Assembly: GCA_048939565.1 (NCBI GenBank)
Contig: JBHLPJ010000015.1
Coordinates: forward strand, 1-15,789
DNA length: 15,789 nucleotides
From: Promethearchaeota archaeon
GTDB taxonomy: Archaea; Asgardarchaeota; Odinarchaeia; Odinarchaeales; JBHLKK01
Direction: 5' to 3'
Part shown: one piece after another, positions 3,150 through 10,631 of the stretch
Position numbering within the stretch: the first letter of the stretch is position 1
How the letters are laid out: each line of letters starts with the position of its first letter
Notes under the pieces: generated by a model
What the model saw: the letters and a program-made list of their open reading frames with translations, nothing else
What the model was told of the DNA's origin: nothing
The model's database searches: none
Position numbers and translations under genes: made by a program

Positions 3150-3674
3150 TTGTACAGATCATTAAGGGCAGTGGTCTTTTTGGGAGACCGTAACAAAAGC
3201 AAATTTAACTGTGTAGGTTTTGCAGGCACATTTGATCGTTTCCATGCAGGACATAAAACCGCACTTCTGAAAGCGCTTGAACTAGGCAAAAAGGTGATTC
3301 TAGGTCTAACAACTGAAGAATTGCTGAAGGGAAAGGCTGAAAAAGATAGAATCCTGCCATTCGAGACTAGAAAGGCAGAGATAAAGAGATTCTTGGAAGA
3401 AGAAGGAGTTGCTGATAGGGTTCGAATAATCCCTCTCAAGGATCCATATGGACCTGCAACATCTAGTAAGGAAATCGAAGCTATAGTGGCTACTAAAGAA
3501 AGCTACGCACGCGTGGAGGAAATCAATCGGATAAGGATTCTGAGGAAACTAGCACCTGTTAAGATTGTTCTGGTCCCTTTGGCTGTCGCCGAGAATGAGA
3601 AACCGATCTCCTCCTCGAGAATAAGAAAGGGTGAGATCGATTCAGAAGGACGCTTGGCAATCCGAAAGAAATAG
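3150..3674 (+). CDS. coaD: Phosphopantetheine adenylyltransferase (archaeal PPAT, cytidylyltransferase superfamily)
   Basis: GFAGTFDRFHAGH (a GxFDxxHxGH nucleotidyltransferase motif), a C-terminal ISSSRIRKGEID motif, about 170 aa. No ATG precedes the motif. Start candidates are TTG 3150 or GTG 3171. Confidence 0.8.
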   Translation: MYRSLRAVVFLGDRNKSKFNCVGFAGTFDRFHAGHKTALLKALELGKKVILGLTTEELLKGKAEKDRILPFETRKAEIKRFLEEEGVADRVRIIPLKDPYGPATSSKEIEAIVATKESYARVEEINRIRILRKLAPVKIVLVPLAVAENEKPISSSRIRKGEIDSEGRLAIRKK

Positions 3675-3684
3675 GGTAAGATTT

Positions 3685-3700
3685 GCAAAATTCTTATATA
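3685..3700 (+). promoter_or_regulatory. BRE/TATA promoter (GCAAAA-TTC-TTATATA) of the permuted 5S gene
   Basis: The TATA box at 3694-3700 is centred about 26 nt upstream of 3724, where the leader-trailer helix begins. Confidence 0.6.
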
Positions 3701-3723
3701 GTGTTTAGAGTTTTTAGATTCCT

Positions 3724-3875
3724 TGTGTGACATCGCGTGAAAGTTAAGCTCTCGTGCGATCTTACCTGTACTGCGGTGCGCGAGCCCGTGGGAAAGTAAG
3801 ATGCTGCTGGTTCGCCAGCGGCCATAGGCGGGAGGAAACACCCGTACCCATTAGAACACGGAACGGTGTCACACA
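3724..3875 (+). other. Bulge-helix-bulge processing stem enclosing the 5S rRNA
   Basis: Outer helix 3724-3735/3864-3875 (12 bp, one G-U). Central 4-bp helix 3736-3739 (CGUG)/3857-3860 (CACG). Three-nt bulges AAA (3740-3742) and GAA (3861-3863), each 3' of the central helix, as in tRNA-intron BHB motifs. The inner helix is weak. Confidence 0.75.
3742..3862 (+). rRNA. 5S rRNA, circularly permuted gene (3' half 3742-3810, UUCG cap 3811-3814, 5' half 3815-3862)
   Basis: 3815-3862 is CCAGCGGCCAUAGGCGGGAGGAAACACCCGUACCCAUUAGAACACGGA, the canonical 5S 5' part. 3742-3810 is AGUUAAGCUCUCGUGCGAUCUUACCUGUACUGCGGUGCGCGAGCCCGUGGGAAAGUAAGAUGCUGCUGG, the canonical 3' part. Helices: I 3815-3822/3803-3810, II 3828-3834/3749-3755, III 3842-3845/3858-3861, V 3759-3765/3796-3802. 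Confidence 0.85.
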
Positions 3876-3984
3876 CTCTTCTAGAAAGACAATCCCCTCT
3901 TCTTCTTTATGTCAATTCTCATAGTGAATTACAGCCTTTATTGGAGAGCAGACATAATCTTGAAGTTTGTGTCTACCGATACAA

Positions 3985-4292: not shown

Positions 4293-6224
4293 ATGAAGGG
4301 AACATTAACACATAAGATATTGAAGGAACATCTGGTGGAAGGAAGTCTTGAAGCAGGCAATGAAATCGCCGTAAGAATAGATCGAACCCTGACTCAGGAC
4401 GCCACAGGAACGATGGCATACCTTCAGTTTGAAGCACTTGAAATACCCAGCGTAAAAACCGAATTATCGGTCAGTTATGTAGACCATAATACGCTTCAGA
4501 CGGATTTTATGAATGCAGATGATCATATATATCTTCAAACCGTCGCGGCAAAGCACGGGATCTATTTTTCAAGACCAGGCAATGGTATTTGCCATCAGGT
4601 AAATCTTGAACGGTTTTCCCGGCCCGGAAGGACTTTGTTAGGATCAGATTCCCATACACCTACAGCAGGCGGAGTAGGGATGCTTGCTATCGGTGCAGGT
4701 GGATTGGATGTGGCCGCTGCAATGGGCGGAGCTCCTTTTTATTTGGAGGTGCCAAGAGTTGTGGGTGTAAGGCTAACTGGAAAAAGACGACCTTGGATTG
4801 CTGCAAAGGATATTATTCTGGAAGTCCTTAGGACCATCGGTGTGAAGGGAGGAGTAGGCAAGGTTTTAGAATATTCCGGAGATGGAGTCGAGGACTTAGA
4901 CGTATATGAAAGAGCTACAATAACAAACATGGGAGCCGAAACAGGGGCAACGACTTCAATATTTCCTTCAAACAAAGCAACAAAGGATTTTTTCGTATTG
5001 CAGGAAAGATTAGACGAATGGGAAGAACTAATACCCGACGATGACGCACAATATGATGAAATCATTGAGATCGATCTATCACGAATAGAGCCATTGGTAG
5101 CAACCCCGCATAGCCCAGGAAATGTATCTAAGATCAGTGAAATAGAAGGGTTGAAGGTTCAGCAAGTGGCTATTGGAAGTTGTACTAATTCATCCTTGAA
5201 AGATCTTATGATAGTAGCAGCAATCCTAAGGGGTAAGAAAGTACATCCTAACCTAAGTTTGGTTATATCACCAGGTTCACGTCAGGTTCTTGAAGAAATA
5301 GCAAGGAATGGCGATTTGGCAGATTTGATTTCATCCGGTGCCCGAATAATAGAGAGCGCCTGTGGGCCGTGCATTGGTATGGGGCAAGCGCCTCCTTCCG
5401 GTAGTGTCTCCGTGAGAACATTTAATAGGAATTTCGAGGGGCGTAGCGGTACGAGGGATGCTCAATTGTTCCTTGTAAGCCCAGAAACAGCGGCTGCAAC
5501 GGCCATATTTGGAGTACTAACGGATCCACGTAAGTTGGGCGATTATCCCGAAATCAGGATACCCGATAGAATCAAAATCGACGATGGAATGATATTGCCA
5601 CCATCTTCCAATCCTGAGGAGGTCGAAATAATAAGGGGGCCAAATATCAAACCACTGCCCAAAAAAGGTCCACTTGAAGATGATCTCCATTTTGAGGTGT
5701 TATTGCGTGTAGGAGACAACATAACAACAGATCATATAATGCCAGCTGGGGCAAAGATACTTCCTCTGAGAAGTAACGTGCCAGCCATCAGTGAGTACGT
5801 GTTCGAGCGGGTTGATTCCTCCTTCGTTTCTCGAGCCAAGGAGAAAGGTGGGGGTTTTGTCGTAGGTGGAGAGAACTATGGACAGGGCTCCAGTAGAGAG
5901 CATGCAGCTCTAGGCCCCATGTATTTAGGAGTTAGGGCGGTTGTGGTCAAGTCATTTGCCAGAATACATAAAGCCAACCTGGTTAATTTTGGAATTCTGC
6001 CTTTGGAGTTTGATGATGCCAAGGATTATGATTCCATCGAGCAAGGTGACAGACTTGCGATTAAAGGGATTAGAGAAACACTAAAAACGGGAGAGACAAG
6101 AATAGTCGCCAAAAATATCTCAAAAGGAAAGGAATTGCTCATGAGAATTGACCTCAGTCCACGATCCAGGGAAATCCTACTGGCAGGCGGGCTTTTAAAC
6201 TATATAAAAGAATCATTCCATTAA
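4293..6224 (+). CDS. acn: Aconitate hydratase (about 640-aa 'Aquifex-type' aconitase, catalytic and swivel domains fused)
   Basis: Motifs GSDSHT, IGSCTNSS, CGPCIGMG, NRNFEGRSG and the C-terminal swivel motif GENYGQGSSREHAA. ATG start with an upstream GAGGG. Confidence 0.9.
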   Translation: MKGTLTHKILKEHLVEGSLEAGNEIAVRIDRTLTQDATGTMAYLQFEALEIPSVKTELSVSYVDHNTLQTDFMNADDHIYLQTVAAKHGIYFSRPGNGICHQVNLERFSRPGRTLLGSDSHTPTAGGVGMLAIGAGGLDVAAAMGGAPFYLEVPRVVGVRLTGKRRPWIAAKDIILEVLRTIGVKGGVGKVLEYSGDGVEDLDVYERATITNMGAETGATTSIFPSNKATKDFFVLQERLDEWEELIPDDDAQYDEIIEIDLSRIEPLVATPHSPGNVSKISEIEGLKVQQVAIGSCTNSSLKDLMIVAAILRGKKVHPNLSLVISPGSRQVLEEIARNGDLADLISSGARIIESACGPCIGMGQAPPSGSVSVRTFNRNFEGRSGTRDAQLFLVSPETAAATAIFGVLTDPRKLGDYPEIRIPDRIKIDDGMILPPSSNPEEVEIIRGPNIKPLPKKGPLEDDLHFEVLLRVGDNITTDHIMPAGAKILPLRSNVPAISEYVFERVDSSFVSRAKEKGGGFVVGGENYGQGSSREHAALGPMYLGVRAVVVKSFARIHKANLVNFGILPLEFDDAKDYDSIEQGDRLAIKGIRETLKTGETRIVAKNISKGKELLMRIDLSPRSREILLAGGLLNYIKESFH

Positions 6225-6249
6225 TTAGCGAATAAAGGAGGAGTAGATC

Positions 6250-7521
6250 ATGGCCAGAAAAGCGATTAGGGAATATGACGGAAAGAGATTGCTGGCACAG
6301 TATTTACCAGAATATGCAAAAGGCAGATTTTCTTATCCGGGAAAAATTGTTTCTGTGAATCCTCAAACCGACATAAAAAAGCTCATTTCCGAGAATCCTT
6401 GGTTGAGAACCGATAAGCTGGTGGTCAAAGTAGATCAGTTGGTGGGAAAAAGGTTAAAGAACAACTTAGTTTTGCTCAATGCAAATGTTGACGAGGTAAC
6501 TAAGTTTATTCAAGAGAGAATGAATAGTACAGTAGCTGTAGGTAACTTAGAAGGAATTCTAACTCATTTCTTAATTGAGCCATTCGTTCCCCATGAAAGA
6601 GAATATTTTGTGGCTATAAGGGCCACACGTGATGGCGATATAATAAATTTCTCAACCGAGGGTGGGATAGACATCGAAGAGAAGTGGGGAAGCGTTGTCT
6701 CTATCGAAATTCCAATTCTTGAATCAATTGAAAATATCGACATTATTGGTGAGCTTCCGTCAGAGCTATCTGTTCAAGTGAGGGGGTTATTTGATGAGTT
6801 CTTGAAAGCATTATACAGGCTTTACAGCGATCTTGGTTTTGCTTACTTAGAAATAAATCCTCTTGTCGTAAACAATAGCACATTCATTCCACTTGATCTC
6901 AAAGCAAGACTGGACGACGCCGCGATGTTTGAAATGGGTGCAAAATGGGGGAATATAGAGTTCCCGGCTCCGTTCGGAAGAGCCCTTACTCCTGAAGAGG
7001 AGTATGTTAATGACCTGGATGAAACAACTGGAGCCTCGCTGAAACTCACAGTTCTTAACCCTAAAGGACGCATTTGGCTGCTGGTCGCCGGTGGGGGTGC
7101 AAGCGTAGTATATACGGATACTGTTACAGATTTTGGCTTCTCAGATGAACTGGCAAACTATGGAGAATATAGTGGAAACCCTGATGAAGAACACACGTAC
7201 CTCTACGCCAAAACAATCATAGATCTTATGACGAGAGAGAAAGATCCAAAAGGAAGAGACAAGATTCTTCTAATTGGTGGGGGGATTGCAAACTTCACTG
7301 ATGTTGCTCAGACTTTCAAGGGAATCATAAGAGCCTTGAAAGAGGCAAAACAGAAACTACAGACTACGAGAGTTCAAATTTATGTTAGACGCGGTGGTCC
7401 CAATTATGAGGTAGGATTAAGGCTTATGAGGGAGTTGGGAAAAGAGTTAGGCGTTCCTATCCAAGTTTACGGACCTGAAACTCATATGACCAAAATAGTT
7501 TCCTTAGCACTCAAAGAGTGA
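6250..7521 (+). CDS. aclB: ATP-citrate lyase beta subunit (ATP-grasp, SucC-like)
   Basis: 423 aa starting MARKAIREYDGKRLL, typical of the ACL small subunit. A strong SD (AAGGAGGAG) precedes it. It lies immediately upstream of the large subunit. Confidence 0.9.
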   Translation: MARKAIREYDGKRLLAQYLPEYAKGRFSYPGKIVSVNPQTDIKKLISENPWLRTDKLVVKVDQLVGKRLKNNLVLLNANVDEVTKFIQERMNSTVAVGNLEGILTHFLIEPFVPHEREYFVAIRATRDGDIINFSTEGGIDIEEKWGSVVSIEIPILESIENIDIIGELPSELSVQVRGLFDEFLKALYRLYSDLGFAYLEINPLVVNNSTFIPLDLKARLDDAAMFEMGAKWGNIEFPAPFGRALTPEEEYVNDLDETTGASLKLTVLNPKGRIWLLVAGGGASVVYTDTVTDFGFSDELANYGEYSGNPDEEHTYLYAKTIIDLMTREKDPKGRDKILLIGGGIANFTDVAQTFKGIIRALKEAKQKLQTTRVQIYVRRGGPNYEVGLRLMRELGKELGVPIQVYGPETHMTKIVSLALKE

Positions 7522-7533
7522 AACTATGGGTGA

Positions 7534-9393
7534 ATGGTAATGAAAAGGGCAGATTATATTCTGTTTGATAAGAAAACCCAAGCATTTATCTACAGCCTTC
7601 AAGCTAATGCAATTCAGCGCATGCTGGATTTTGACCATATCTGCAAAAGAGAAAAACCTAGTGTGGCTGCAGTTGTCGATCCATTCAGATCCGGACTGCA
7701 CAAGGTATTTTGGGGAAACAAAGAGATTCTGATACCAGTCTATGGCACCATAAAAGAGGCCGTAAGAAATCATCCGGATGTTGATGTAATGATCAATTTT
7801 GCATCTTTTAGGTCTGCATATCCTACAACCTACGAAGCACTAGAAGAGAAGGCTATCAGAGTCGTTGTAATCATTGCTGAGGGCATTCCTGAAACAAAAA
7901 CAAAGAAGCTGATTGCTATTGCAAAGAAGAACAATAAGACAATTATTGGGCCGGCAACAGTTGGAGGGTTGGTTGCCGGAGCATTCAAGATTGGCAATAC
8001 TGCCGGAGCTATTGAAAATATCGTTGCTGCAAAGTTATATAGACCGGGTTCTGTAGGTGTTGTTTCGAAGTCTGGTGGACTTCTAAACGAGATTTTCAAT
8101 ATGGTTGCATTGAACTCAAATGGCGTTTTTGAAGGAGTGGCCATAGGTGGAGACAGATATCCTGGCTCCACACTTTTCGATCATATAATGAGATATGAAG
8201 CAAACCCTGAAATAAAAATGATAGTCGCTTTGGGCGAAGTTGGGGGTATAGACGAGTACCAAATAGTGGAAGCTCTGAAGCAAGGAAAGATTACTAAACA
8301 ACTTGTTATGTGGGTAATTGGAACAGCTGCGACAGTTTTTCCAACCGGAGTCCAATTTGGACACGCAGGCGCGATGGCTGAAAGCAGGTTAGAAAATGCT
8401 GACGCAAAGAATCGGGCTTTAAAAGAAGCAGGTGCAGTAGTTCCAAATTCATTTGATGATTTTGGAGAAAAAATCCATCAGGTGTATGAAGAGCTAAAGT
8501 CAAAAGGTGAGATTCCTGAAGTAGAAGAATTTGATGTCCCTCATATCCCAATGCCTTATCAAGTTGCTTTATCAAAGGGCATCATAAGAAAGCCTGCAAA
8601 CTTCGTAACTACAATATCAGATGATCGAGGAGAAGAGCCCACCTACGTGGGAATACCTATAAGTGAGATCATTGAAGAGAATTATTCTATTGGAGATATA
8701 ATAGGTCTGCTTTGGTTCAGAAAGAAGCTGCCAAAGTTCGCAACAGAATTCATCGAGATAGTCCTGAAAATTGTTGCAGATCATGGACCAGCTGTATCAG
8801 GGGCGCATAATGCCATTGTTGCTGCTAGAGCTGGCAAAGACCTTATTTCTGCACTCTGCAGCGGTCTCTTGACAGTTGGTCCGCGATTTGGAGGGGCGAT
8901 CGACGGCGCAGCACGCTATTTCGGTCAAGCAAAGGATTCAGGAATGAAACCTGCAGATTTCGTAGATGATATGAAGGCCAAAGGAATTTATATCCCAGGA
9001 ATTGGCCACAGGATAAAAAGCGTGGAGAATCCCGACAAGCGTGTGGAACTGCTTAAGGATTTTGCGCGTAAAAACTTTCCAAAAACTGATTATCTGGATT
9101 ATGCTCTTGAAGTCGAGAATCTAACGACGCAAAAAAGAAACACCTTGATTCTAAATGTTGATGGGTGTGTTGGCATTCTGTTCTTGGATATGCTTAAAGG
9201 GACGGGTATGTTCACAGACCATGAGATAAGAGAGATGGTCGAGATTGGATACCTTAACACCATGTTTGTATTAGGAAGAAGTATAGGGATTATTGGGCAT
9301 ATTCTCGATCAAAAGCGTCTCAAAGCTGGCTTATACAGACATCCATGGGATGATATTCTCTATCACATAGAGAGACAAGGGAGTGATGAGTGA
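7534..9393 (+). CDS. aclA: ATP-citrate lyase alpha subunit (CoA-binding/SucD-like domain plus a citrate-synthase-like citryl-CoA lyase domain)
   Basis: 619 aa. Phosphohistidine loop [10 protein letters not shown]-terminal citrate-synthase-like segment ([12 protein letters not shown]...GPRFGGA...PGIGHRIKS). This indicates a true two-subunit ACL rather than separate CCS and CCL enzymes. Confidence 0.9.
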
Positions 9394-10631
9394 TGAATAA
9401 GAAATTGGAGCACCTAAAAGATCCGACTGAGGGGACGTGTATCGAAGTTATTGATAATAGACTGCAAGTACCAGACAATCCCGTCATTTCGTTTATCGAA
9501 GGAGATGGTGTAGGTCACGATATAACCAAGGCTATGCTGGTGGTTGTGAACGCTGCAGTTGAAAAGGCATATTACGGGCGCAGAAAAATAGCTTGGTACG
9601 AGATATTTGCAGGCGAGAAAGCCAAAGCCTTGTATGGCGAGTATCTGCCTAAAGAAACTCTCGACGCAATCCGGAAATATATTGTAGCAATAAAGGGACC
9701 CCTAACAACGCCAGTTGGAGGAGGGTACAGAAGCCTTAACGTGACTATAAGGCAGGAACTCGATTTATATGCATGTGTAAGACCAGTAAGAGGCATGAGG
9801 GGGGTACCTGCACCAATTAAGAGACCAGAGCTAGTAGATATGGTAGTTTTTCGTGAAAATATCGAGGATGTCTATGCAGGTATTGAATGGCGAGCAAATA
9901 CACCTGAAAGTCGTAAGTTTATCGAATTTCTTAGCAATGAGATGGGAGTATCAATTCCCTCAGATTCAGGAATAGGGGTCAAGCCAATTAGCAAGACTAG
10001 AACCTACAACATTGTGCGCAAATCAATTAATTATGCAATTGAGAACAAAAGAAGAAGCGTTACGATAATGCACAAGGGTAACATCATGAAGTTCACTGAG
10101 GGGGCCTTTAGAGAGTGGGGATATGAAGTGGCAAATAATGAGTTTAGAAATCATATAGTAACCGAGGAGGAACTGATCAGTGGCGAATCAACTGACGGCA
10201 AAGTTGTTATTAAAGACAGGATTGCAGATGCGATGTTTCAGCAGGTACTACTAAGGCCAGAAGAATACGATGTCATAACTACGTCTAACTTAAACGGTGA
10301 TTATATATCTGACGCGTTGGCTGCTCAAATCGGTGGATTGGGAATGGCCCCTGGAGGAAACATTGGCGACTACCTTGCTGTTTTTGAGGCTACACATGGC
10401 ACTGCTCCAAAATATGCAGGATTGGATAAAGTAAATCCAGGATCCCTGATTCTCTCGGCGGTTATGATGCTTCGCTATATCGGATGGAATGAAGCAGGCG
10501 ATCTGATCGAGAAAGCTCTTGAAGAAACCATACTGCAAAAAAGGGTTACTTACGATCTTGAACGTCAAATGGAAAATGCGACACTCCTAAAGACTTCAGA
10601 ATTTGCCAAAGCAGTTGTTGAAAATCTCTAA
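9393..10631 (+). CDS. icd: Isocitrate dehydrogenase (NADP-type homodimeric IDH)
   Basis: [21 protein letters not shown] and [27 protein letters not shown] motifs, about 412 aa. The ATG at 9393 shares its A with the aclA TGA stop (an upstream GTG at 9390 is also in frame). Confidence 0.9.

What the first reader, a model, noticed from the sequence alone, without database searches (positions are those of the whole stretch)
3724..3875. Circularly permuted 5S rRNA gene with a BHB that predicts a circular mature 5S rRNA
In genomic order the two halves of a good archaeal 5S rRNA are swapped. Positions 3742-3810 carry AGUUAAGC, the helix II 3' strand, helix V, the loop E / helix IV region and the helix I 3' strand GCUGCUGG. 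Positions 3815-3862 carry the helix I 5' strand CCAGCGGC, CAUAG, helix II, loop B, helix III and loop C (ACCCAUUAGAAC), ending in CACGGA. The natural termini (helix I, 8 bp) are covalently closed by a UUCG tetraloop (3811-3814). The new ends fall between helix III and helix II. Leader 3724-3735 pairs with trailer 3864-3875 (12 bp). A 4-bp helix follows (3736-3739/3857-3860), with 3-nt bulges AAA (3740-3742) and GAA (3861-3863), each 3' of the central helix, which is the geometry of archaeal splicing-endonuclease substrates. Cutting after the second bulge nucleotide on both strands releases 3742-3862 (121 nt). Joining A3862 to A3742 recreates CACGGA-AGUUAAGC, the conserved 5S junction. The only way to obtain a canonical 5S fold from this locus is therefore excision plus circularisation, giving a covalently closed 5S. 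As far as I recall, the same logic applies to permuted tRNA genes and the permuted Thermoproteus SRP RNA, and I recall permuted 5S only from some organelle genomes. I cannot check whether an archaeal case has been described.
Basis: partly seen in the sequence, partly recalled or inferred. Interest (0 to 1): 0.92.

Follow-up and report, generated by a model that had tools for sequence, protein, structure and literature searches.

The report
Permuted 5S rRNA gene, Asgard archaea
In this Asgard archaeon and at least four related lineages the 5S ribosomal RNA gene has its two halves in swapped order, flanked by a conserved splicing-type cut-and-join signal, so a normal 5S fold can form only if the transcript is cut out and closed into a ring; no such archaeal gene turned up in the literature searched.

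Summary
Rfam finds no 5S at its curated threshold. In permissive mode it gives two sub-threshold half hits in swapped order.

A covariance model built only from 15 ordinary archaeal 5S rRNAs, which I permuted in silico, hits the native locus end to end at exactly 3742-3862 (105.9 bits). Real colinear 5S genes score only 26-42 bits with that model.

The same architecture occurs in eight distinct sequences from five Asgard lineages, taken from NCBI MAGs and from Logan, ENA and JGI assemblies. Across them:
- The 12-bp leader-trailer helix has compensatory changes at 7 of its 12 pairs.
- The 4-bp central helix CGUG/CACG and the bulges AAA and GAA never vary.
- Helix I is always closed by a 3-4 nt loop.
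- A TATA box lies 27-31 nt upstream of the leader helix.

In one lineage the gene sits beside the 23S rRNA gene.

The most likely pathway is cleavage by the splicing endonuclease, RtcB ligation into a 121-nt circle, and refolding of helix III. No RNA evidence exists, so whether the final form is circular is an inference. Eight literature searches found no archaeal precedent. The closest analogue is the permuted, circular SRP RNA of Thermoproteus.

One correction: the break lies in the AA bulge of helix III, not between helices II and III.

The parts
3685..3700 (+). Putative archaeal promoter: BRE-like GCAAAA followed by the TATA box TTCTTATATA. Its position implies a transcript start at about 3722-3725.
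   Evidence: Sequence. A TATA-like element lies 27-31 nt upstream of the first leader-helix nucleotide in all five lineages (the L046 distance was counted by hand). The function is inferred from position, not tested.
3724..3735 (+). Leader: 5' strand of the 12-bp outer helix (h) of the BHB. It is discarded after cleavage.
   Evidence: Pairs with 3864-3875. Of the 12 pairs, 7 have compensatory double changes and 97.9% of cells are paired across 8 sequences. The helix is formed in the MFE and centroid folds.
3736..3739 (+). 5' strand (CGUG) of the central 4-bp helix of the BHB.
   Evidence: Pairs with CACG at 3857-3860. It is invariant in all 8 sequences although it is not part of the 5S sequence. 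It is present in the MFE fold.
3740..3742 (+). 5' three-nucleotide bulge AAA. The predicted cut is between 3741 and 3742, so A3742 becomes the first nucleotide of the excised RNA.
   Evidence: Invariant in all sequences. The cut position follows from the established rule for archaeal splicing endonuclease, which cuts after the second bulge nucleotide (my own knowledge, not tested here). R1 places the 5S start at exactly 3742.
3742..3810 (+). 3' half of the 5S rRNA: second A of the helix III bulge, lower helix III strand GU, loop B, helix II 3' strand, helix V, loop E region, helix IV, loop D, and helix I 3' strand GCUGCUGG.
   Evidence: RF00001 aligns model positions of roughly 60-120 here. 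The profile of colinear 5S matches its positions 48-116. R1 alignment. Compensatory changes occur in helices II, V and I.
3811..3814 (+). UUCG tetraloop that covalently closes helix I where an ordinary 5S has its 5' and 3' ends.
   Evidence: The loop is UUCG in three lineages, UUU in L046 and GCCG in L061, and is always 3-4 nt.
3815..3862 (+). 5' half of the 5S rRNA: helix I 5' strand CCAGCGGC, loop A CAUAG, helix II 5' strand, GAAAC, helix III, loop C (an 11-nt version, CCCAUUAGAAC), the helix III 3' strand ACGG, and the first A of the AA bulge.
   Evidence: RF00001 aligns model positions of roughly 1-58 here. The profile of colinear 5S matches its positions 5-50. R1 ends at exactly 3862.
3857..3860 (+). 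3' strand (CACG) of the central BHB helix. It overlaps the helix III 3' strand ACGG (3858-3861), so the BHB and helix III are mutually exclusive folds.
   Evidence: The constrained folds differ by 0-3.7 kcal/mol across five sequences.
3861..3863 (+). 3' three-nucleotide bulge GAA. The predicted cut is between 3862 and 3863, so A3862 becomes the last nucleotide of the excised RNA.
   Evidence: Invariant. It appears as a 3-nt bulge in the MFE fold. Joining A3862 to A3742 gives CACGGAAGUUAAGC, as in colinear archaeal 5S rRNAs.
3864..3875 (+). Trailer: 3' strand of the outer BHB helix.
   Evidence: See the leader.
3876..3909 (+). Pyrimidine/T-rich tract, the likely termination region. It is weaker in the window than in its relatives.
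   Evidence: Five of the six other lineages/variants examined have a run of 4-5 T starting 4-9 nt after the trailer; L061 has one only at +43. The window has only CTCTTCT and then TCTTCTTCTTT. Inference only.

Best explanation
This is the organism's 5S rRNA gene in circularly permuted form.

1. A dedicated promoter drives a transcript of about 155-190 nt in which the 3' half of 5S precedes the 5' half. The normal ends of helix I are joined by a UUCG tetraloop (shown by sequence and by homology in permuted order).
2. The leader and trailer pair into a 12-bp helix. This stacks on a 4-bp helix flanked by two 3-nt bulges, which is a bulge-helix-bulge motif (shown by covariation and by folding).
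3. The archaeal splicing endonuclease cuts after the second nucleotide of each bulge and releases nucleotides 3742-3862 (inferred).
4. The RNA ligase RtcB joins A3862 to A3742, just as it circularises tRNA introns and pre-16S/23S rRNA. The product is a 121-nt covalently closed circle (inferred).
5. The CACG segment, freed from the leader, re-pairs with CCGU to form helix III. The ligation junction then sits in the conserved AA bulge of helix III (inferred from the mutually exclusive pairings).
6. The circle enters the large ribosomal subunit as it is (inferred; this is the least certain step).
For: - **It is a 5S only in permuted order.** Rfam gives two swapped sub-threshold half hits. A profile of colinear 5S gives one full hit of 80-87.5 bits on rotated sequences against two half hits of about 29-36 bits on native sequences. 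A covariance model built from 15 non-Asgard 5S rRNAs permuted in silico hits the native locus at 3742-3862 over its full length with 105.9 bits. True colinear genes get only 26-42 bits with that model.
- **It is conserved.** The same architecture occurs in NCBI MAGs (GCA_048886265.1, GCA_048939465.1 and others), in Logan and ENA assemblies, and in JGI metagenomes. These represent five lineages and eight distinct sequences, scoring 93-110.6 bits.
- **It covaries.** 94.9% of cells are paired and 18 pairs have changes on both sides, which 0 of 500 shuffles reach. The leader-trailer helix has 7 of 12 pairs compensatory. Helices I, II and V each have 3-4 compensatory pairs. The central helix and both bulges are invariant, even though the leader CGUG and two of the AAA nucleotides are not 5S sequence.
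- **It folds as predicted.** The MFE fold of the window precursor forms the outer helix, the central helix and the 3-nt bulge (-64.7 kcal/mol, z = -3.78). The BHB and helix III conformers lie within 0-3.7 kcal/mol of each other. The circular sequence folds into the 5S three-way junction in 4 of 5 lineages.
- **The junction sequence is robust.** Symmetric cleavage after bulge nucleotide 1, 2 or 3 gives the same CACGGAAGUUAAGC (read directly from the sequence).
- **It looks like its own transcription unit.** A TATA box lies 27-31 nt before the leader helix in every lineage, and a T run follows the trailer in most.
- **Its genomic context fits.** In L045/L047 the gene lies about 670 nt from the 23S rRNA gene.
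- **There is precedent.** The permuted SRP RNA of Thermoproteus is cut at a BHB by the splicing endonuclease and functions as a circle (PMC4731332). E. coli ribosomes tolerate a 5S whose native ends are linked by a tetraloop (PMC7283268). Minor circular forms of ordinary 5S rRNA were seen in Sulfolobus and Halobacterium (PMC3326292).
Against: - No RNA data of any kind were available. Transcription, cleavage, ligation and ribosome incorporation are all untested.
- In the window clade the inner flanking helix of the BHB starts with a G.A mismatch, so the 5' site is a relaxed BHB. The type of splicing endonuclease in this organism, and hence how tolerant it is, is unknown.
- The BHB competes with helix III for the same nucleotides. 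In the thermodynamic ensemble the central helix has only 0.01-0.49 probability, depending on the lineage.
- Whole genomes could not be searched, so a second, colinear 5S elsewhere cannot be excluded.
- The window has no clear oligo-T terminator directly after the trailer.
Confidence: 0.7

Rival explanations
1. The circle is only an intermediate. After BHB cleavage and ligation, an endonuclease opens the loop that closes helix I. The mature 5S is then an ordinary linear molecule with conventional ends, as happens with permuted tRNA genes and with circular pre-16S/23S rRNA.
For: Permuted tRNA genes and archaeal pre-rRNAs go through circular intermediates that are then opened (PMC3978253; PMC12918454; PMC7758197). 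The loop sequence is not conserved: it is UUCG, UUU or GCCG. Its identity therefore does not seem to be needed in the ribosome.
Against: The linker is only 3-4 nt in all five lineages, and in three of them it is the very stable C(UUCG)G tetraloop. There is no spacer, no second BHB and no conserved sequence that could direct a nuclease. The closest analogue, Thermoproteus SRP RNA, stays circular, and circular 23S rRNA is reported within mature archaeal ribosomes (abstract, PMC12918454).
Confidence: 0.15
2. The RNA is cut at the BHB but not ligated, or is simply trimmed. The ribosome would then contain a linear, permuted 5S with its ends in helix III, like the permuted mitochondrial 5S of brown algae, which is permuted in the final product.
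For: Organellar permuted 5S rRNAs work as linear permuted molecules (PMC4267664). The two ends would be held together by the helix III pairs on either side of the AA bulge.
Against: The cut ends are exactly the substrates RtcB joins (5'-OH and 2',3'-cyclic phosphate; established knowledge). The two half-bulges add up precisely to the conserved AA of helix III. That precision would not be needed if the ends stayed open. Simple trimming also would not require a covarying 12-bp leader-trailer helix and an invariant BHB.
Confidence: 0.08
3. The locus is a rearranged relic or regulatory decoy, and a normal colinear 5S gene elsewhere in the genome supplies the ribosome.
For: Whole genomes of these organisms could not be scanned, and MAGs often lack rRNA genes.
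Against: - The locus has been kept across five lineages, with compensatory changes in every 5S helix and full conservation of the functional loops. That indicates selection for a working 5S fold.
- It has its own promoter-like element and lies next to the 23S gene in one lineage.
- The genome scan with a 5'-half pattern that catches both arrangements found only the permuted copy in the one clade genome it reached, alongside 27 colinear genes from other archaea.
- No colinear 5S was found in about 80 kb of inspected flanking DNA.
Confidence: 0.04
4. The arrangement is an assembly artefact, for example the mis-joining of two tandem 5S copies.
For: None was found. I considered it only because the window comes from an automated Logan assembly.
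Against: The identical arrangement appears in independent assemblies from different samples, assemblers and databases, on contigs of up to 154 kb.
Confidence: 0.01

Closest known systems
Permuted, circular SRP RNA of Thermoproteus (Plagens et al. 2015, eLife; PMC4731332)
   Same: It is a permuted gene for a universal structural RNA. The leader and trailer of the primary transcript form a BHB, the tRNA splicing endonuclease cuts it, ligation gives a circle, and the circle is the functional form.
   Different: It is a different RNA (SRP RNA, not 5S rRNA) in a different lineage (Thermoproteales, with a heterotetrameric relaxed-specificity endonuclease). The junction lies near a functional loop of helix 8 rather than in a helix bulge. 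It has been shown experimentally, whereas the case here rests on sequence alone.
Circularly permuted tRNA genes (Cyanidioschyzon merolae and others; Soma 2014, PMC3978253)
   Same: The 3' half is encoded upstream of the 5' half in one transcript. A BHB forms at the junction of the new ends, and expression goes through a circular RNA (abstract).
   Different: The tRNA circle is re-opened at the linker by the tRNA end-processing enzymes to give a linear tRNA. Here the linker is a 3-4 nt hairpin loop with no evident processing signal.
Circular pre-16S/pre-23S rRNA, circular or permuted mature 23S rRNA in archaea (PMC12918454, PMC7758197, bioRxiv 10.64898/2026.03.23.713588)
   Same: A BHB in a processing stem made of leader and trailer, followed by endonuclease and ligase, gives a circular rRNA. 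For 23S, the circle or a permuted derivative is reported in ribosomes.
   Different: Those genes are colinear, and any permutation arises after transcription. The literature states that this pathway applies to 16S and 23S 'but not 5S rRNAs' (PMC12918454). Here the gene itself is permuted, so circularisation is obligatory to obtain the fold.
Permuted mitochondrial 5S rRNA of brown algae and other stramenopiles (Valach et al. 2014, PMC4267664; Rfam mtPerm-5S)
   Same: It is a 5S rRNA in which helix I is replaced or closed by a hairpin and the ends lie elsewhere.
   Different: It is organellar. The ends lie at the junction of domains alpha and gamma (loop A), not in helix III. There is no BHB and no ligation, and the final product is linear and permuted.
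Minor circular forms of colinear 5S rRNA in Sulfolobus and Halobacterium (Danan et al. 2012, PMC3326292)
   Same: These are circles of about 123 nt with the topology of a 5S whose helix I ends are joined.
   Different: The gene is colinear. The circles are of low abundance and uncertain meaning (an intermediate or a degradation step), and they were not validated by RT-PCR. No BHB was described.

Membership tests
5S rRNA (Rfam RF00001) | Full-length match to the 5S covariance model at or above the curated threshold (38 bits) in genomic order | tested here: not met
   No hit at gathering threshold. There are two half hits of 26.6 and 16.5 bits in swapped order. The same failure occurs in L059 and L061.
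5S rRNA (Rfam RF00001) | Full-length match in sequence and secondary structure once the circular permutation is allowed for | tested here: met
   Model R1, built from 15 canonical archaeal 5S rRNAs permuted in silico, scores 105.9 bits over model positions 1-124 at 3742-3862. Rotated sequences give 80-87.5 bits full-length against a profile of colinear 5S. For comparison, canonical archaeal 5S genes score 64.6-98.1 bits with RF00001.
5S rRNA (Rfam RF00001) | Helices I-V maintained by compensatory substitutions, and conserved loops A, B, C and E | tested here: met
   Helices I, II and V have 3, 4 and 4 pairs respectively with changes on both sides. Helices III and IV are invariant. CAUAG (CACAG in L061), GUUAAGC, ACACCCG and CCCAU (CUCAU in L061) are conserved.
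5S rRNA (Rfam RF00001) | Present in the large ribosomal subunit | not testable with these tools
   No RNA or ribosome data were available.
Bulge-helix-bulge substrate of the archaeal splicing endonuclease | A central 4-bp helix flanked by two 3-nt bulges on opposite strands, each 3' of its strand of the helix | tested here: met
   CGUG (3736-3739) pairs with CACG (3857-3860), with bulges 3740-3742 and 3861-3863. All are invariant in 8 sequences and are present in the MFE fold.
Bulge-helix-bulge substrate of the archaeal splicing endonuclease | An outer flanking helix h of at least 2 bp | tested here: met
   The helix is 12 bp, with 7 pairs compensatory and 97.9% of cells paired.
Bulge-helix-bulge substrate of the archaeal splicing endonuclease | An inner flanking helix h' of at least 2 bp continuous with the central helix | tested here: inconclusive
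   L044 and L046 have G-C, U-A, U.G. The window clade, L059 and L061 have G.A, then U-A and U.G (helix 3). ViennaRNA prefers GUU paired with AAC of the lower helix III instead.
Bulge-helix-bulge substrate of the archaeal splicing endonuclease | Cleavage by the endonuclease at the predicted phosphates, with the endonuclease and RtcB encoded in the genome | not testable with these tools
   Neither gene lies in the window or its 27-kb contig. A 175-aa endonuclease gene was seen in an Asgardarchaeia MAG (L052), but that genome was not shown to carry a permuted 5S.
Permuted non-coding RNA genes expressed through circularisation (permuted tRNA, Thermoproteus SRP RNA) | The 3' part is encoded upstream of the 5' part in one transcription unit, with the native termini joined by a short linker | tested here: met
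   The linker is 3-4 nt in all lineages. A single promoter-like element lies upstream.
Permuted non-coding RNA genes expressed through circularisation (permuted tRNA, Thermoproteus SRP RNA) | Ligation at the processing motif restores the canonical sequence and fold | tested here: met
   Joining 3862 to 3742 gives CACGGAAGUUAAGC, as in the colinear genes. The circular sequence folds into the 5S three-way junction in 4 of 5 lineages.
Permuted non-coding RNA genes expressed through circularisation (permuted tRNA, Thermoproteus SRP RNA) | A circular RNA or junction reads observed | not testable with these tools
Organellar permuted 5S rRNA (mtPerm-5S) | Ends at the junction of domains alpha and gamma, helix I replaced by a terminal hairpin, linear final product, no processing motif | tested here: not met
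   Here the break is in the AA bulge of helix III (domain beta) and a BHB flanks it. For the organellar description see PMC4267664. The locus is not a member of this family.

The most novel reading that the evidence does not exclude
A whole clade of Asgard archaea has no colinear 5S gene at all. Its nearest named relatives are Odinarchaeia, and its MAGs are labelled Promethearchaeota or Hodarchaeota. On this reading the clade builds its ribosomes with a covalently closed circular 5S rRNA made by the tRNA-splicing machinery from a permuted gene.

This would be the first permuted rRNA gene in archaea and the first ribosome with an obligatorily circular 5S. It would also explain why standard tools report 5S as missing in some Asgard genomes. 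One example is the closed Heimdallarchaeum genomes, where 5S 'could not be predicted' (PMC8813620). That link is a lead only and was not tested.
Probability: 0.6. Interest if true: 0.9.

Novelty: new variant of a known kind. Interest (0 to 1): 0.85.

Why it matters
- **A supposed exception falls.** 5S rRNA is regarded as the one archaeal rRNA that does not go through BHB cleavage and circularisation (PMC12918454). Its gene is regarded as trivially recognisable in archaeal genomes (PMC4267664, abstract). Here both assumptions fail in a lineage of the archaea closest to eukaryotes.
- **A third ribosomal RNA for the splicing machinery.** If the RNA behaves as the sequence predicts, the tRNA-splicing endonuclease and ligase have a further essential ribosomal substrate. 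It would also be a second natural example, after Thermoproteus SRP RNA, of a universal RNA that functions as a circle.
- **A natural counterpart to an engineered 5S.** It would parallel the engineered 5S with tetraloop-closed ends that works in E. coli.
- **A practical consequence for annotation.** Rfam/Infernal-based annotation misses these genes. Genomes of this clade will be scored as lacking 5S, and so cannot meet genome-quality standards that require all three rRNAs (my own knowledge of the MIMAG criteria).
- **A cheap remedy.** A permuted covariance model such as R1 finds these genes with 93-110 bits and could be run over all archaeal genomes.

Tried and rejected
1. **Synteny walks from the PPAT gene to distant homologues** (P0006, P0014). 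The neighbourhood is not conserved and no 5S was present.
2. **Synteny walks from RpoB of the L045 lineage to its closest relatives.** These are labelled Odinarchaeota (L053, L054) and Asgardarchaeia (L052), plus unnamed ones (L055, L056). None has a permuted or colinear 5S near RpoB. I therefore could not say whether those genomes have the permuted form.
3. **IMG/VR scans.** The permuted pattern gave nothing. A 16-mer spanning the 5' BHB junction gave two hits, both chance, since R1 finds nothing there.
4. **L048 from the metagenome scan.** This is a chance match in coding-like DNA.
5. **The ORF at 3503-3841 on the minus strand (112 aa), which overlaps the locus.** I treated it as spurious because the region is explained by a conserved structured RNA. 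It was not tested further.
6. **A quick co-fold of the 23S flanks in L047, looking for a classical BHB in its processing stem.** It shows a long stem, but I did not resolve a clean 3-4-3 motif and did not pursue it.
7. **Searching a rotated sequence directly with Rfam.** The tools do not allow this. I replaced it with the mirror-image model R1 and an nhmmer profile.
Full report
**What is at the locus**

- The leader TGTGTGACATCG (3724-3735) is complementary to the trailer CGGTGTCACACA (3864-3875): 11 Watson-Crick pairs and one G-U.
- CGTG (3736-3739) pairs with CACG (3857-3860).
- AAA (3740-3742) and GAA (3861-3863) are unpaired. Each lies 3' of its strand of the 4-bp helix.

Between the bulges lie, in this order, the 3' half of a 5S rRNA (3742-3810), a TTCG loop (3811-3814) and the 5' half (3815-3862). 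ARAGORN finds no tRNA in the window, and Rfam at its curated thresholds finds no RNA family at all.

**Is it a 5S, and only in permuted order?**

In permissive mode Rfam RF00001 gives two sub-threshold hits. The first, 3697-3812 (26.6 bits), aligns only the 3' half of the model convincingly. The second, 3814-3907 (16.5 bits), aligns only the 5' half.

The tools cannot search a rotated sequence with Rfam, so I ran two equivalent tests.

- *Profile test.* I built an nhmmer profile from 15 ordinary archaeal 5S genes. These came from a genome scan and score 64.6-98.1 bits with RF00001. Rotated sequences give one hit of 80-87.5 bits across the whole profile. Native sequences give two hits of about 29-36 bits in swapped order. 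Of 200 shuffles, the best scores 1.1 bits.
- *Mirror-image covariance model.* I permuted those 15 canonical sequences in silico by cutting in GGA|AGU and joining the natural ends with UUCG, then aligned them (A2). RNAalifold recovered the 5S helices in permuted order, with 20 of 33 pairs covarying. I then built covariance model R1. R1 contains no Asgard sequence. It hits the native window at exactly 3742-3862 over model positions 1-124 with 105.9 bits (E = 1e-22). Genuine colinear 5S genes score only 26-42 bits as half hits.

The boundaries R1 reports coincide to the nucleotide with the cleavage sites predicted from the bulges.

**Source organism and relatives**

The window is part of a 27-kb Logan contig from SRR30758825. 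Names attached to close homologues place it among Asgard archaea.
- PPAT: 99% and 79% identity to proteins of 'Promethearchaeota archaeon' MAGs.
- TyrRS: 92% ('Hodarchaeota'), 88% ('Promethearchaeota'), then 63-65% to Odinarchaeia.

The MAG labels are inconsistent. I therefore call it an Asgard lineage whose nearest named relatives are Odinarchaeia.

The gene order PPAT, permuted 5S, aconitase is kept in several NCBI MAGs and in Logan and ENA contigs. All of these carry the permuted locus, in four sequence variants.

A permutation-specific pattern scan of JGI metagenomes found two further lineages.
- L044/L045/L047, whose RpoB is 78% identical to Odinarchaeota and Asgardarchaeia proteins.
- L046, which has a profilin-like ORF next door.

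Synteny walks from TyrRS found two more, each on a contig of about 150 kb (152 and 154 kb) and each invisible to Rfam.
- L059: 110.6 bits with R1.
- L061: 93 bits.

**Covariation**

I aligned the eight distinct precursors (A4) and counted pairs for the precursor structure.
- 94.9% of cells form standard pairs (shuffles: 85.1 +/- 1.0).
- 18 pairs have changes on both sides (shuffles: 9.2 +/- 1.7). None of 500 shuffles reaches either value.
- Structures slid by 1-3 columns give 30-47% pairing and at most 4 such pairs.

The leader-trailer helix is the most variable part in sequence. For example, the leader/trailer pairs are TGTGTGACATCG/CGGTGTCACACA, GTGGTAGCACCG/CGGTGCTACTAC, TTGGTGGCATCG/CGATGCCACCGC and ATGGTAGTATCG/CGATACTACCGC. 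Yet 97.9% of its cells are paired, with compensatory changes at 7 of its 12 positions.

Helices I, II and V of the 5S carry 3, 4 and 4 compensatory pairs. The central helix and both bulges never vary. The leader's CGUG and the first two A of the AAA bulge are not 5S sequence, so their invariance beside a freely varying leader points to selection on the BHB itself.

With only five lineages these statistics are modest in depth, but they are consistent throughout.

**The BHB in detail**

The geometry is the canonical one. On each strand the order is outer or inner helix, then the central helix, then a 3-nt bulge 3' of it. Cleavage after the second bulge nucleotide is the established rule for the archaeal enzyme (my own knowledge). 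Applied here, it releases A3742...A3862, which is 121 nt.

Symmetric cleavage after bulge nucleotide 1, 2 or 3 would give the same ligated sequence, CACGGAAGUUAAGC. That is the sequence found in colinear archaeal 5S genes.

- The junction lies in the conserved AA bulge inside helix III. In the Rfam consensus, 'uCgg AA gu' has the AA unpaired between paired segments. It does not lie between helices II and III.
- The central helix uses CACG (3857-3860), which overlaps the helix III strand ACGG (3858-3861). The BHB and helix III therefore cannot coexist, and the RNA must refold after the leader is removed.

ViennaRNA puts the two conformers within 0-3.7 kcal/mol of each other in five precursors. 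The BHB conformer is the MFE for the window, L014 and L044.

The inner flanking helix is G-C, U-A, U.G in L044 and L046. In the window clade, L059 and L061 it begins with G.A. There the 5' site is a somewhat relaxed BHB.

**Transcription unit and context**

A BRE/TATA-like element lies 27-31 nt upstream of the first leader-helix nucleotide in all five lineages. A run of 4-5 T follows the trailer within 4-9 nt in five of the six other lineages/variants examined. L061 has such a run only at +43, and the window itself has only a pyrimidine-rich tract. This suggests a compact, self-contained unit whose transcript starts at the base of the processing helix. That is inference.

In L045/L047 the archaeal 23S rRNA gene (2935 bits) lies about 670 nt away on the other strand. 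There is no colinear 5S in the 272 nt after its 3' end.

No colinear 5S was found in any of the following:
- the window;
- the 20-kb extension L001;
- the 21-kb loci L059 and L061;
- the GTDB representative genome H2M.186, where a 5'-half pattern that catches both arrangements found only the permuted copy, alongside 27 colinear genes from other archaea.

Whole genomes could not be searched.

**Mechanism and rivals**

The best-supported pathway has five steps:
1. transcription;
2. leader-trailer pairing into a BHB;
3. cleavage by the splicing endonuclease;
4. RtcB ligation into a 121-nt circle;
5. refolding of helix III and use as a circle.

| Claim | My estimate |
|---|---|
| The locus is a genuine, selected, permuted 5S gene | about 0.97 |
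| It is matured by BHB cleavage and ligation | about 0.85 |
| The whole chain holds, including a circular final form | about 0.7 |

The main rival, at about 0.15, is re-opening of the circle at the helix I loop. Permuted tRNAs and pre-16S/23S rRNAs behave this way. Against it, the linker is only 3-4 nt in every lineage (UUCG three times, UUU, GCCG) and carries no recognisable signal.

A cut but unligated, nicked 5S is unlikely (about 0.08). A relic beside a normal gene (about 0.04) and an assembly artefact (about 0.01) are less likely still. The reasons are given under the rival explanations.

Closure of helix I by a tetraloop is compatible with ribosome function in E. coli (PMC7283268).

**Comparison with what is known**

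Eight full-text searches found permuted 5S only in organelles (PMC4267664). These were, whose hit list led to the review read. In the organellar case the ends lie at loop A and the product stays linear.
- A 2023 review of natural RNA permutations lists 5S only through that reference (PMC10085705).
- A 2026 paper states that circularisation applies to archaeal 16S and 23S 'but not 5S rRNAs' (PMC12918454).
- Danan et al. saw minor circles of ordinary 5S in Sulfolobus and Halobacterium, of unclear meaning.
- The closest mechanistic analogue is the permuted, circular SRP RNA of Thermoproteus (PMC4731332).

I therefore class the finding as a new variant of a known kind: a BHB-dependent permuted RNA gene, here applied for the first time to a ribosomal RNA gene. 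The library holds only open-access papers and preprints, so a description elsewhere cannot be excluded.

**Verdict**

The finding is of high interest (0.85). What is missing is RNA evidence. The junction sequence to look for is ...CCCAUUAGAACACGGA|AGUUAAGCUCUCG....

Noticed in passing
window 4293-10631: Directly downstream of the 5S locus lies a co-oriented cluster. It encodes aconitase, both subunits of ATP-citrate lyase (ATP-grasp/citrate-binding and CoA-ligase/citrate-synthase domains) and isocitrate dehydrogenase. That is a reverse-TCA-type gene set in an Asgard archaeon.
   Followed up: no
L047 273-3356 (minus strand); L045 6373-9456: An archaeal 23S rRNA gene (about 2935 bits) lies about 670 nt from the permuted 5S and is transcribed divergently. 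No 16S lies upstream of it in the DNA held, so the rRNA genes appear unlinked. ORFs listed inside it (for example L045 6385-6825) are spurious. Its flanks form a long processing stem in which I did not resolve a clean BHB.
   Followed up: partly
L046 6966-7100 (minus strand): A 135-nt tRNA that evidently contains an intron (Rfam 49.4 bits; ARAGORN misses it) starts about 12 nt after the T5 run that follows the permuted 5S trailer. Two substrates of the splicing endonuclease therefore sit side by side.
   Followed up: partly
L047 4480-4575 and 4744-4852 (same in L045): Two long tRNA genes lie downstream of the permuted 5S. ARAGORN calls one, of 93-96 nt, tRNA-SeC (anticodon TCA). The other is 109 nt and presumably contains an intron.
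   Followed up: no
L046 6411-6824: A 137-aa ORF next to the permuted 5S has a weak profilin match (PF00235, E = 3.4e-4, below the curated cut-off). That fits an Asgard origin for this contig.
   Followed up: no
L052 1283-1810: A 175-aa tRNA-intron endonuclease gene (PF02778 + PF01974), of the size of the homotetrameric type, lies near rpoB in an Asgardarchaeia MAG (GCA_054384735.1). No 5S of either kind was found in that 11-kb locus.
   Followed up: no
window 3848-3853 and the colinear genes L016-L043: The window clade has an 11-nt loop C (CCCAUUAGAAC), one nucleotide shorter than the Rfam consensus. The other four permuted lineages have the usual 12 nt. The short form also occurs in colinear 5S genes of Methanomassiliicoccales, Hydrothermarchaeota, several DPANN groups and some Nitrososphaeria.
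   Followed up: partly
window 3503-3841 (minus strand): A 112-aa GTG-started ORF overlaps most of the 5S locus on the opposite strand. A gene caller could annotate it as a hypothetical protein and so mask the RNA gene.
   Followed up: no
MAG names: Near-identical organisms carry different phylum labels in NCBI: 'Promethearchaeota archaeon' and 'Candidatus Hodarchaeota archaeon'. The next-closest named proteins are from Odinarchaeia. The taxonomic placement of this clade therefore needs a proper phylogeny.
   Followed up: no
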